64,000 nt of DNA, from positions 50,592-114,591 of the forward strand of contig DAGH01000001.1 of NCBI GenBank assembly GCA_002495675.1. The letters are read 5' to 3'. Source of the stretch: Euryarchaeota archaeon UBA182. GTDB taxonomy: Archaea; Thermoplasmatota; Poseidoniia; Poseidoniales; Thalassarchaeaceae. The position numbers and the translations under genes were made by a program. The notes under the pieces are model-generated. The model had not been told where the DNA came from, did not search any database, and saw nothing but the letters and a program-made list of their open reading frames with translations. The stretch's first letter is position 1. Each line of letters starts with the position of its first letter. Positions 59,904 to 61,427 of the stretch are shown one piece after another.

Positions 59904-60185
59904 CTATGCAAAATGCTCGTTAAATCTCCCTTCCTTTGTGGCCTTGATGGCTTCTCTGGCGTGCATGCCCTCTACCTTGATTCTCATGGCAACACATGTG
60001 CCCATGACTTCTCTGCACATTGCGGAGATATCTGAGCCTGTTAGTTTGGATTTCTGCTTTCCAACAACTGACTTGATCTGCTCAATGGTGATATTCTCAG
60101 TAGCGCTATCGACATCACCGTTGCATTTCTTCAGACCCAATTCTTGAAGGATCAGATGAGGAGTTTCATTACGGTCGGACATCAC
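59904..60185 (-). CDS. rpl11: Ribosomal protein L11 (uL11), C-terminal rRNA-binding domain only
   Basis: 93 aa. TPHLILQELGLKKCNG...ITIEQIKSV...REVMGTCVAMRIKVEG aligns with L11 residues from about 70 to the end. The N-terminal domain (PGGKATPGPPLGPALG) is absent. Only 70 nt separate this ORF from the spt5 stop, and an in-frame TAA lies at 60225-60227. Confidence 0.7.
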   Translation of the reverse strand: MMSDRNETPHLILQELGLKKCNGDVDSATENITIEQIKSVVGKQKSKLTGSDISAMCREVMGTCVAMRIKVEGMHAREAIKATKEGRFNEHFA

Positions 60186-60256: not shown

Positions 60257-61150
60257 TCACTCCACTCGTTGTGTCACCCTTACTTGATCGGCCCTGACTG
60301 TCAATGCAACGGGCACCAGTGCCTCGTAGAGCTCCACCGTCACTTCTTCCTTCGATTCTGTGACCCTGACTACACGTGCTGATTGGCCTCGGAAGGCCCC
60401 ACCCGTGATCTCAACTATGCAACCCTCCTCTATGCCAGCAGTGGCTGCCTTAGGCTCAAGGTACGGGAGTACATCCTCGAGTGGCGATTCCCCATCGAGT
60501 ACCTTCCTGCAGTTCTTCATGGGCGTGGTGCTCATCCCGGTTCTGCCGATCACCTTCTCGACGTGATGCTTGGCAGATGCTTCTACGAAGACATACCCCT
60601 TCATGTGTTGTGGTTGCAATACGCTGAATATCTCATCTTGGATGTCCTCTAGCGATCCAGTCCCTGAGAGCCTCGCCCTGATCTCCTTCGCGACATTCTG
60701 CTCCTGACCTATCGAGGTTTTTAGGATGTAAAGGAAAGAGGCGACGTCACCGTATAACTCGCTCAGTCGTGGCATTGAGTACTCCTTTTCACCAATCCTC
60801 CCGGGGTCTATCCATTCACAGTTTTTGTAAATCGTTTTAGCCGAAATGTCGGCCTTGTCCCCCAAGAAGAGCAGCGGAGTGACCTCGACTAGCCTTGCAG
60901 GTGCGCTGGAGGTTTTTCCGAACGAGATACCACGTGCAGCACCTGATCTGACGTATGTGAGCGCATCAGCTTCGATGCCTGTACATTCTGATATTCTTGA
61001 AATTACTGCTTCGATGTCATCTGGGTCACCGGCTCCATATACCCCGTCCCAGGCACCTGGGAGATCTCCGATATCGTCTGATCTTTGCATCAACAATACT
61101 CTATCTTCTGACCGAACAAAGGCTACAAACGCTTCTGACATGCAAATCAC
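60257..61150 (-). CDS. spt5: Transcription elongation factor Spt5 (NGN plus KOW) with a roughly 140-aa N-terminal Nudix-like extension
   Basis: The NGN domain is LYILKTSIGQEQNVAKEI...KGYVFVEA. The KOW domain is GCIVEITGGAFRGQSARVVRV. N-terminal residues 1-125 read FVRSEDRVLLMQRSDD..LPGAWDGVYGAGDPDDIEAVISRISECTGI, which is a Nudix-fold pattern with a degenerate box. Confidence 0.8.
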   Translation of the reverse strand: MICMSEAFVAFVRSEDRVLLMQRSDDIGDLPGAWDGVYGAGDPDDIEAVISRISECTGIEADALTYVRSGAARGISFGKTSSAPARLVEVTPLLFLGDKADISAKTIYKNCEWIDPGRIGEKEYSMPRLSELYGDVASFLYILKTSIGQEQNVAKEIRARLSGTGSLEDIQDEIFSVLQPQHMKGYVFVEASAKHHVEKVIGRTGMSTTPMKNCRKVLDGESPLEDVLPYLEPKAATAGIEEGCIVEITGGAFRGQSARVVRVTESKEEVTVELYEALVPVALTVRADQVRVTQRVE

Positions 61151-61157
61151 CCCACTC

Positions 61158-61427
61158 TTAAGACCCGGTTAACCATCCAAAGAAAGATGGTAAGGCATTG
61201 TCCATGAGGGCCAACACGACGAATCCAATAGCCCCAAGAACGAACATCCCAATTCCACAGACGATTACCGTCTGCCTAAACTCCAACTTGGAAGGCTTCT
61301 TTGCCATCTTCAGGATCCTTGCTGTTGATCCTGTTTGCAGTCTACGTACTCGTCCCTCAATCTCATCCTGCCATGTTTGAACACGAGTTTCTATTGGTCC
61401 TCTTTGACTAGTCTCGATGGCCATCAC
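61158..61427 (-). CDS. secE: Preprotein translocase subunit SecE (Sec61 gamma)
   Basis: ARILKMAKKPSKLEFRQTVIVCGIGMFVLGAIGFVV. Canonical position upstream of spt5. Confidence 0.85.
   Translation of the reverse strand: MMAIETSQRGPIETRVQTWQDEIEGRVRRLQTGSTARILKMAKKPSKLEFRQTVIVCGIGMFVLGAIGFVVLALMDNALPSFFGWLTGS

What the first reader, a model, noticed from the sequence alone, without database searches (positions are those of the whole stretch)
60257..61150. Spt5 fused to a Nudix-like N-terminal domain
Seen in sequence:
- Archaeal Spt5 is normally about 150 aa (NGN plus KOW). Here the ORF is 297 aa.
- It starts 7 nt after secE, so there is no room for a separate gene.
- Residues 1-125 read like a Nudix fold: ..VRSEDRVLLMQRSDD..LPGAWDGVYGAGDPDDIEAVISRISECTGI ... 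CEWIDP.
- The Nudix box is degenerate. The consensus REUxEExGU is replaced by RISECTGI, so only some of the catalytic glutamates remain.
- The only internal ATG that would give a normal-length Spt5 is at 60775. Using it would leave 375 nt of uninterrupted, protein-like open frame unused.

Inference: the domain may be a nucleotide- or metabolite-sensing or cap/NAD-cap-related module attached to the universal elongation factor.
Basis: partly seen in the sequence, partly recalled or inferred. Interest (0 to 1): 0.6.

Follow-up and report, generated by a model that had tools for sequence, protein, structure and literature searches.

The report
Spt5 with a degenerate Nudix domain
The only copy of the universal transcription elongation factor Spt5 in this marine archaeon, and in its whole order (Marine Group II), carries an extra N-terminal domain that is a real Nudix fold but has lost most of its catalytic residues; no paper found here describes this architecture.

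Summary
ORF 60257-61150 (minus strand; the real start is probably the ATG at 61141, giving 294 aa) encodes a Nudix-fold domain (residues 1 to about 131) fused in frame to a complete Spt5 (NGN plus KOW).

- **Nudix identity.** Pfam alone is sub-threshold. An exhaustive phmmer search, a profile-profile comparison (99.4%, E 2e-21) and an AlphaFold model (pLDDT 85) all point to Nudix. The top 50 PDB matches to the model are all Nudix hydrolases.
- **Degenerate box.** REUxEExGU has become x-R-[IV]-x-E-[CAVST]-T-G-[IL]. Only one of the three glutamates remains.
- **Distribution.** The fusion is present in all three sampled families of Ca. Poseidoniales (Marine Group II). It is the only Spt5 in each of those genomes. 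It is absent from the sister order and from the rest of the Thermoplasmatota, which carry a stand-alone canonical relative of 132-144 aa.
- **Selection and start.** dN/dS is about 0.05. Shine-Dalgarno-like motifs precede the N-terminal ATG in 16 of 16 genes. No internal start is conserved.
- **Function.** I infer a mainly non-catalytic binding or sensor module on the RNA polymerase-bound factor. This was not tested.
- **Neighbour.** The adjacent L11 gene lacks its N-terminal domain in every Marine Group II genome searched.

The parts
60257..61141 (-). Full Nudix-Spt5 gene: 294 aa from ATG 61141, stop codon at 60257-60259. The alternative GTG at 61150 would give 297 aa.
61146..61153 (-). Shine-Dalgarno-like GGGGTGAT, ending 4 nt before the ATG at 61141 (spacer TTGC). 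Equivalent GGTGA/GGAGG motifs precede the N-terminal ATG in 16 of 16 orthologues.
60749..61141 (-). N-terminal Nudix-fold domain (residues 1-131, numbered from the ATG Met). The last helix, PRLSELY, leads directly into the NGN domain.
   Evidence: AlphaFold pLDDT 84.7, pTM 0.79. Foldseek top 50 are all Nudix, best E 1.8e-8, TM up to 0.74. hhalign 99.4% to canonical Nudix relatives.
60974..61045 (-). Degenerate Nudix box, G33-I56: GVYGAGDPDDIEAVISRISECTGI. Compared with the canonical GX5EX7REUXEEXGU it is two residues shorter, RE has become x-R49, and EE has become E52 followed by C/A/V/S/T.
60266..60730 (-). Spt5 core (NGN plus KOW), matched by TIGR00405 at residues 141-295 of the GTG-numbered protein. 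The Pfam NGN match spans 60545-60733.
60332..60418 (-). KOW motif (Pfam PF00467, residues 245-273 in GTG numbering).
61158..61427 (-). secE, directly upstream (context).
59904..60185 (-). Ribosomal protein L11, directly downstream (context). It has only the C-terminal RNA-binding domain (93 aa).

Best explanation
This is the single Spt5 gene of a Marine Group II archaeon (Ca. Poseidoniales, family Thalassarchaeaceae). Its product has three domains: a Nudix-fold domain, then NGN, then KOW.

Origin (shown). The Nudix domain descends from a small stand-alone canonical Nudix hydrolase family that is widespread in Thermoplasmatota. [quoted passage not shown] The domain was joined to Spt5 once, in the ancestor of the order. 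It then evolved fast along the stem branch. It lost the first Glu and the second Glu of the EE pair of the REx2EE signature, and a downstream Glu that is conserved among its canonical relatives. It gained invariant Arg49, Arg70 and Asp32.

Translation (supported). The domain is translated as part of Spt5 from a conserved N-terminal start and is under purifying selection.

Mechanism (inference, about 35-40% within this statement). The NGN and KOW part works as ordinary Spt5: with Spt4 it binds the RNA polymerase clamp. The remodelled Nudix pocket no longer hydrolyses a substrate. Instead it binds a phosphate-bearing ligand, either a nucleotide-derived metabolite or a nucleotide-like 5' end of the nascent RNA. 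This places a ligand-reading module on the elongation complex, in the way inactive Nudix domains act in NrtR regulators.
For: Fusion and sole copy.
- One uninterrupted frame of 288-320 aa in 39 of 41 relatives. The other two genomes lack the Spt5 locus altogether.
- 64 of 64 in-order genomes hit by the profile scan.
- 97 of 101 fetched loci give complete 280-309 aa ORFs.
- Exactly one significant TIGR00405 match per genome, and it is always the fused gene; two genomes add only a weak sub-cut-off match (E about 3e-3).

Nudix homology.
- phmmer against 1.8 billion representative proteins gives hits at E 1e-6 to 1e-4 covering residues 8-133. These are bona fide NUDIX proteins by Pfam (E 1e-7 to 1e-19), and many are NUDIX plus IF-2B fusions.
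- hhalign 99.4%, E 2e-21, 119 aligned columns.
- 15 of 21 N-terminal domains match Pfam NUDIX at E <= 0.1.
- AlphaFold model plus Foldseek.

Degenerate site, in 82 unique sequences.
- The position of the canonical Arg is A/S/T/K.
- The position of the first Glu is Arg in 81 of 82.
- The EE pair is Glu (80 of 82) followed by C/A/V/S/T, never Glu.
- The WE[HN] Glu of canonical relatives is replaced by an invariant Tyr105.
- Invariant residues: R10, R20, W31, D32, G33, G36, T54, R70, G71.

Single origin. The fused domains form one group with 100/100 support on a long branch. Outside the order the best profile score is 64 bits, against 145-203 bits inside it. Those outside hits lie mostly in stand-alone frames of 133-180 aa (a few in longer frames), and the seven I read have canonical REVEEETGI-type boxes. 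The sister order has a standard Spt5.

Selection and start. dN/dS is 0.049 at dS 1.7. A Shine-Dalgarno-like motif precedes the N-terminal ATG in 16 of 16 genes, and no internal start is conserved.

Spt4 is present in 41 of 41 genomes.
Against: Several acidic residues remain conserved near the old active site: D32, D39, D42, D/E44, E52 and D112. A non-canonical metal site with residual hydrolysis therefore cannot be excluded.

The domain is very acidic (median pI 4.35, net charge about -13). That argues against broad nucleic-acid binding and leaves only a specific pocket.

The full-length AlphaFold model failed in the NGN region (pLDDT below 50 for residues 126-232). The position of the Nudix domain relative to NGN and RNA polymerase is therefore unknown.

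The conserved residues were not mapped in three dimensions.
Confidence: 0.55

Rival explanations
1. Structural or docking module. The Nudix fold has lost both catalysis and ligand binding. It serves only as a folded, acidic N-terminal appendage that contacts RNA polymerase, Spt4, chromatin proteins or the ribosome, or that stabilises the NGN domain. This would be loosely comparable to the acidic N-terminal region of eukaryotic Spt5.
For: Three of the four signature residues are lost, and an Arg replaces a metal-binding Glu. That Arg could pair with the newly invariant Asp32 and fill the pocket. The domain is strongly acidic. A long stem branch indicates a change of function. The last helix of the domain runs straight into the first NGN strand with no long linker.
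Against: Four invariant arginines (R10, R20, R49, R70) plus the invariant W31-D32-G33 and T54-G55 lie in the box region of the sequence. This looks more like a maintained pocket than a surface patch. Spt4 is still present, so no partner needed replacing. No interdomain contact could be modelled.
Confidence: 0.25
2. Active enzyme tethered to RNA polymerase. The domain still hydrolyses a substrate through a non-canonical metal site. Candidates are removal of pyrophosphate or an NAD-type cap from nascent 5' ends (as RppH and NudC do), or cleaning of damaged NTPs next to the polymerase (as MutT does).
For: Foldseek matches include RppH, BdRppH, NudC, MutT and Ap4A hydrolases at TM 0.55-0.74. The conserved acidic residues D39, D42, D/E44 and E52 remain on the loop and helix of the box. 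In Marine Group II genomes the fused copy is the only member of this Nudix subfamily, so any ancestral activity would have to reside in it.
Against: The Glu of RE is Arg in 81 of 82 sequences, and the second Glu of EE is never acidic. E52 is Gln in some Poseidoniales-type members (P0136, P0151). The box is two residues shorter than canonical. The genome has six other Nudix matches that reach the Pfam cut-off and could cover housekeeping functions.
Confidence: 0.15
3. Two products, or an annotation artefact. A normal-length Spt5 is made from an internal start (ATG 60775 in this genome), and the upstream frame is a separate, untranslated or rarely translated region.
For: In this genome an AAGGAG sequence lies 6 nt upstream of ATG 60775. 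That start would yield a 172-aa Spt5.
Against: The AAGGAG sequence simply encodes the conserved Lys-Glu. The Met is Leu or Val in congeners and Thr or Ile in other genera. Two orthologues (L014, L021) have no ATG, GTG or TTG anywhere near the domain boundary. The upstream part is under strong purifying selection and folds confidently. No stop codon separates the parts in any of the loci read; the one apparent break (G001) is a run of masked N.
Confidence: 0.03

Closest known systems
Archaeal Spt5 (Pyrococcus furiosus Spt4/5, PDB 3P8B and 3QQC; Methanocaldococcus jannaschii, PDB 4ZN1)
   Same: NGN plus KOW core (profile E 1e-22 to 1e-25). The secE-spt5-rpl11-rpl1-rplP0 gene order. A single copy per genome. 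Spt4 present.
   Different: Those proteins are 147-163 aa. This one has an extra N-terminal Nudix-fold domain of about 131 aa and two small insertions in the NGN domain.
[quoted passage not shown]
   Same: Homologous over the whole domain: hhalign 99.4%, 32% identity over 119 columns. Same length, and the whole domain aligns.
   Different: They keep the canonical E-x2-EE box and the WE[HN] motif and are not attached to Spt5. Their substrate is not known to me.
NrtR (Nudix-related transcriptional regulators of bacteria); from my own knowledge, not tested here
   Same: A Nudix-fold domain with a degenerate box, fused to a transcription protein and used as a ligand (ADP-ribose) sensor rather than an enzyme. 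This is the functional analogy I favour.
   Different: NrtR is a DNA-binding repressor with a winged-helix domain that acts at initiation. Here the partner is the elongation factor. No specific sequence relation was found or sought.
RppH, BdRppH and NudC (RNA 5'-end Nudix hydrolases)
   Same: Same fold. They are among the best structural matches (TM 0.53-0.70). They act on nascent or mature RNA 5' ends, which is a plausible target for a polymerase-tethered domain.
   Different: They have complete catalytic boxes. Sequence identity is only 11-21%.
CFIm25/NUDT21 and the MutY C-terminal domain (non-catalytic Nudix folds that read RNA or DNA); from my own knowledge. MUTYH 7EF9 appears at rank 47.
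   Same: A Nudix fold reused as a binding module in nucleic-acid transactions.
   Different: The domain here is very acidic (net charge about -13), which fits poorly with extended nucleic-acid binding.

Membership tests
Spt5/NusG (TIGR00405, archaeal Spt5) | NGN domain | tested here: met
   PF03439 E 2.9e-14, 53.2 bits against a cut-off of 22.4. TIGR00405 117.2 bits against a cut-off of 69.95. Aligns to solved Spt5 chains at E 1e-22 to 1e-25.
Spt5/NusG (TIGR00405, archaeal Spt5) | C-terminal KOW domain | tested here: met
   PF00467 24.4 bits against a cut-off of 22.3. AlphaFold predicts five beta strands at residues 242-291 with pLDDT 75-84.
Spt5/NusG (TIGR00405, archaeal Spt5) | Conserved secE-spt5-rpl11 context, and the only copy in the genome | tested here: met
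Spt5/NusG (TIGR00405, archaeal Spt5) | Binds the RNA polymerase clamp together with Spt4 | not testable with these tools
   Spt4 (PF06093) is present in 41 of 41 genomes. Binding itself was not tested.
Nudix superfamily (PF00293) | Nudix alpha/beta/alpha fold | tested here: met
   AlphaFold pLDDT 84.7, pTM 0.79. Foldseek against the PDB gives 345 hits at E <= 1e-3; the top 50 are all Nudix, best E 1.8e-8, TM up to 0.74.
Nudix superfamily (PF00293) | Sequence homology to family members | tested here: met
   The window protein itself is below the Pfam cut-off (14.3-16.4 bits against 21.1). However, phmmer reaches verified NUDIX proteins at E 1e-6 and hhalign gives 99.4%.
Nudix superfamily (PF00293) | Nudix box GX5EX7REUXEEXGU with its catalytic glutamates | tested here: not met
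   RE has become x-Arg (81 of 82 sequences). EE has become Glu followed by C/A/V/S/T. The loop is two residues shorter. It is therefore a member of the fold and superfamily by descent, but it is not a canonical Nudix hydrolase.
Nudix superfamily (PF00293) | Pyrophosphohydrolase activity | not testable with these tools
   Needs an enzyme assay.
Non-catalytic Nudix sensors (NrtR-like logic) | Binds a nucleotide-derived effector without hydrolysing it, and thereby changes the activity of the fused partner | not testable with these tools
   Only indirect evidence: lost catalytic residues together with invariant R10, R20, R49 and R70.

The most novel reading that the evidence does not exclude
The remodelled Nudix pocket is a ligand-reading input on the universal elongation factor. 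It would sense either a nucleotide-derived metabolite (of the ADP-ribose, NAD or Ap4A type) or the chemical state of the nascent RNA 5' end (ppp or an NAD cap). The abundant ocean archaea of Marine Group II would then gate elongation, or transcription-translation coupling, through Spt5 itself. This change may have evolved together with the loss of the factor-binding N-terminal domain of ribosomal protein L11, which is encoded by the next gene and is missing from every Marine Group II genome searched.
Probability: 0.15. Interest if true: 0.85.

Novelty: new variant of a known kind. Interest (0 to 1): 0.66.

Why it matters
Spt5/NusG is the only transcription factor conserved in all three domains of life, and archaeal Spt5 is treated as the minimal NGN-KOW form. 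Here a whole order that dominates surface-ocean archaeal plankton has no minimal Spt5. Its only copy carries a conserved, selectively maintained pseudo-Nudix domain.

If the domain binds a ligand or an RNA 5' end, it would be a direct metabolic or RNA-status input into elongation in a prokaryote. It would parallel the way eukaryotic Spt5 recruits cap-related enzymes.

Public annotation calls these proteins plain 'Spt5' or 'NusG', and the precomputed Pfam domains list only NGN and KOW. Five full-text literature searches found no description of the fusion.

The domain can be expressed on its own, so the hypothesis can be tested without culturing the organism.

Tried and rejected
1. Full-length AlphaFold model, to see how the Nudix domain sits on NGN. 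The NGN region came out at pLDDT below 50, so it gave no information.
2. Idea that the Nudix domain replaces Spt4. Rejected: Spt4 is present in 41 of 41 genomes.
3. Idea that the domain is a recent copy of a resident Nudix gene. Rejected: a profile of the domain finds none of the six other Nudix loci of this genome. Each Marine Group II genome has only the fused copy of this subfamily.
4. Idea that fusion followed from gene adjacency. In the sister order the stand-alone relative is on a different contig from spt5.
5. Apparent split gene in genome G001. This is an artefact of masked N runs.
6. Internal start at 60775. It is not conserved.
8. Naming the canonical subfamily. NCBIfam gives only weak sub-threshold matches to NudI, NudB and NudG-type models. 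Neighbours of the stand-alone relatives give no clear substrate hint: a PIN-ATPase-KH gene in some genomes, and a DEAD-box helicase plus ribosomal protein L10e in others.
9. Literature. Five searches found nothing on a Nudix-Spt5 fusion.

Full report
**What is there.** On the minus strand, ORF 60257..61150 (297 aa from GTG) lies between secE (61158..61427) and the ribosomal genes L11, L1 and P0; ftsZ lies upstream of secE.
- Pfam finds Spt5-NGN at residues 140-202 (E 2.9e-14) and KOW at 245-273. It finds only a sub-threshold NUDIX match at residues 7-68 (E 0.041, 14.3 bits against a cut-off of 21.1).
- TIGR00405 (archaeal Spt5) covers residues 141-295 at 117 bits.
- A family profile aligns to solved archaeal Spt5 chains of 147-163 aa only over its C-terminal half.

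**Start codon.**
- All close homologues begin at MSEAF or MSDAF.
- On the coding strand the sequence upstream of ATG 61141 reads GAGTGGGGTGATTTGC-ATG. This is a GGGGTGAT Shine-Dalgarno-like motif, and the GTG at 61150 lies inside it.
- In 16 diverse orthologues from all three families, a GGTGA, GGAGG or GAGGTGA-type motif sits just upstream of the equivalent ATG, within about 10 nt.
- The internal ATG at 60775 is Met only in some members of this genus. It is Leu or Val in congeners and Thr or Ile elsewhere. Two orthologues have no ATG, GTG or TTG anywhere near the domain boundary.
- The likely product is therefore 294 aa and includes the N-terminal domain.

**Is the N-terminal part a real protein domain?**
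- 670 database proteins of 288-294 aa match over 99% of the length. They come from marine 'Thermoplasmatota' or 'Euryarchaeota' metagenome-assembled genomes. Where named, they are called only Spt5 or NusG, and the precomputed Pfam domains are NGN with or without KOW.
- Against a congener, the N-terminal domain has dN 0.084 and dS 1.7 (ratio 0.049). The Spt5 core has dN 0.003. The domain evolves faster than the core but is clearly constrained.

**Is it Nudix?**
- An exhaustive phmmer search with residues 1-135 against 1.84 billion representative proteins gave 82 hits. Apart from two long repetitive proteins (P0139, P0157) that I did not pursue, the strong ones I checked are fused Spt5 proteins or fragments of them.
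- From E 1e-6 onwards, the hits cover residues 8-133 in proteins that Pfam confirms as NUDIX (E 1e-7 to 1e-19). Many of these are NUDIX plus IF-2B-domain fusions.
- A profile of 21 diverse N-terminal domains against a profile of 12 of those canonical proteins gives hhalign probability 99.4%, E 2e-21, 119 columns and 32% identity.
- 15 of the 21 N-terminal domains match Pfam NUDIX at E <= 0.1 when scanned individually.
- AlphaFold2 on the 21-sequence alignment gives pLDDT 84.7 and pTM 0.79, with a beta-sheet core and a 12-residue helix at the box position.
- Foldseek against the PDB returns 345 matches at E <= 1e-3. The top 50 are all Nudix enzymes (NudI, MutT, Ap4A hydrolases, RppH, BdRppH, NudC and others). 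The best E is 1.8e-8 and TM reaches 0.74.
- The fold assignment is therefore solid.

**State of the active site.** All residue numbers here count from the ATG Met.
- Aligned with its canonical relatives, the box GX5EX7REUXEEXGU reads G33-VYGAG-D39-...-S48-R49-I-S-E52-C53-T54-G55-I56 and is two residues shorter.
- In 82 unique orthologues: the canonical Arg position is A/S/T/K; the first Glu is Arg in 81 of 82; the EE pair is Glu (80 of 82, Asp in 2) followed by C35/A18/V14/S13/T2.
- Two members outside that set of 82 have Gln at position 52.
- The WE[HN] Glu of canonical relatives is an invariant Tyr105.
- Invariant in all 82 sequences: R10, R20, W31, D32, G33, G36, T54, R70, G71, P89, Y105, W110, D112, Y130 and G131.
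- Of these, R49, R70, D32 and Y105 are specific to the fused family.
- The domain is very acidic (median pI 4.35, net charge about -13).
- My reading is that the metal-dependent hydrolase site has been dismantled and rebuilt around arginines. This is an inference, because the residues were not mapped in three dimensions.

**Distribution and origin.**
- The window's genome has 1.37 Mb in 28 contigs. Record titles of relatives name Ca. Poseidoniales, Thalassarchaeaceae, Thalassarchaeum and Marine Group II. A scan of the collection of one genome per species found 265 loci encoding a relative.
- The domain is present in 39 of 41 relatives across three families, always in an open frame (stop to stop) of about 290-390 aa apart from the masked G001 (470 aa). 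The two genomes without it also lack any Spt5 locus.
- Each genome has exactly one significant Spt5 match, the fused gene; two genomes add only a weak sub-cut-off match.
- In a sample of 301 genomes from the phylum, the profile scores 145-203 bits in all 64 in-order genomes that were hit. Outside the order it scores at most 64 bits, mostly in stand-alone frames of 133-180 aa. The seven I read have canonical boxes, for example REVEEETGI in the sister order.
- Sister-order genomes have an Spt5 that matches the model over about 158 aa (for example a 179-aa ORF in L033), with the Nudix relative on another contig.
- In a maximum-likelihood tree, the fused domains are one group with 100/100 support, separated from all stand-alone relatives by about 2.7 changes per site.
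- This fits a single fusion in the ancestor of the order, followed by rapid remodelling. The stand-alone copy of this subfamily is absent from Marine Group II genomes.

**Mechanism.**
- Shown: the architecture, the homology, the loss of signature residues, the conservation, the sole-copy status and the presence of Spt4.
- Inferred: the NGN-KOW core acts as ordinary Spt5 on the RNA polymerase clamp. The N-terminal domain is a mainly non-hydrolytic binding module. I favour a phosphate-bearing ligand or a 5'-end-reading role (about 35-40%) over a pure docking role (about 25%) or residual enzymatic activity (about 15%).
- The position of the domain relative to NGN and the polymerase could not be obtained, because the full-length model failed in the NGN region.

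**Comparison with what is known.**
- It is a member of the Spt5 family: all testable features are met.
- It is a descendant of the Nudix superfamily that fails the defining box test. I therefore file it as a pseudo-Nudix domain, not as a Nudix hydrolase.
- Functionally, the nearest analogues I know are NrtR regulators (an inactive Nudix domain acting as an ADP-ribose sensor on a transcription factor), and CFIm25 and the MutY C-terminal domain (Nudix folds that read nucleic acids). These comparisons come from my own knowledge and were not tested here.
- Five full-text searches found no paper describing a Nudix-Spt5 or Nudix-NusG fusion.
- Earlier first-stage notes in this scan flagged the same architecture in two other genomes. 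They repeat the same reading and are not independent evidence.

**Verdict.** This is a real, order-wide and apparently undescribed variant of the universal elongation factor. Its function is open but can be tested in vitro. Interest 0.66; new variant of a known kind.

Noticed in passing
window 59904-60185 (-): Ribosomal protein L11 is only 93 aa. It matches positions 73-158 of the 164-position L11 model, so the N-terminal factor-binding domain is missing. PF03946 (L11_N) is absent from this genome and from all 41 relatives of the order. It is found in all 14 control genomes and in 39 sister-order genomes, and in none of the Marine Group II genomes in that class sample. A sister-order locus has a full 156-aa L11 next to a standard Spt5. 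The L11 truncation and the Nudix-Spt5 fusion, in adjacent genes, showed the same distribution in every genome sampled.
   Followed up: yes
L041:2974-5147, L042:2355-4563, L043:1223-3399, L046:1205-3390: In four non-Marine-Group-II Thermoplasmatota genomes, the stand-alone canonical relative of the domain lies directly after a gene of about 595 aa, sometimes overlapping it. That gene has PIN, PilT-like ATPase and KH domains; Pfam was run only on the L043 copy. In the sister order the relative follows a DEAD-box helicase and ribosomal protein L10e (L044). This may hint at an ancestral role in nucleic-acid metabolism.
   Followed up: partly
L049 (G000:C20:9565-10728), L048, L050: Marine Group II genomes carry a homologue of that ATPase in an open frame of 457-459 aa. 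It matches only residues about 130-520 of the 593-aa protein, so it appears to lack the PIN and KH ends.
   Followed up: no
protein P0151 (385 aa): One Poseidoniales-type Spt5 variant has about 85 further N-terminal residues in front of the Nudix domain. These include an acidic stretch and a C2H2-like motif, CSWCGEKLASARELADHKLLH.
   Followed up: no
L009, L013, L016 (family f3); L011, L012 (genera g3, g7): There are lineage-specific insertions between the second helix of the Nudix domain and the junction helix. Family f3 has a DYNCIFSNLDMEN-type insertion of about 9 residues. Two f1 genera have an acidic insertion of about 16 residues.
   Followed up: no
window 60775 region (-): An AAGGAG sequence lies 6 nt upstream of the internal ATG at 60775 in this genome. 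It encodes the conserved Lys-Glu and is probably a coincidence. A minor short Spt5 isoform in this genus cannot be excluded.
   Followed up: partly
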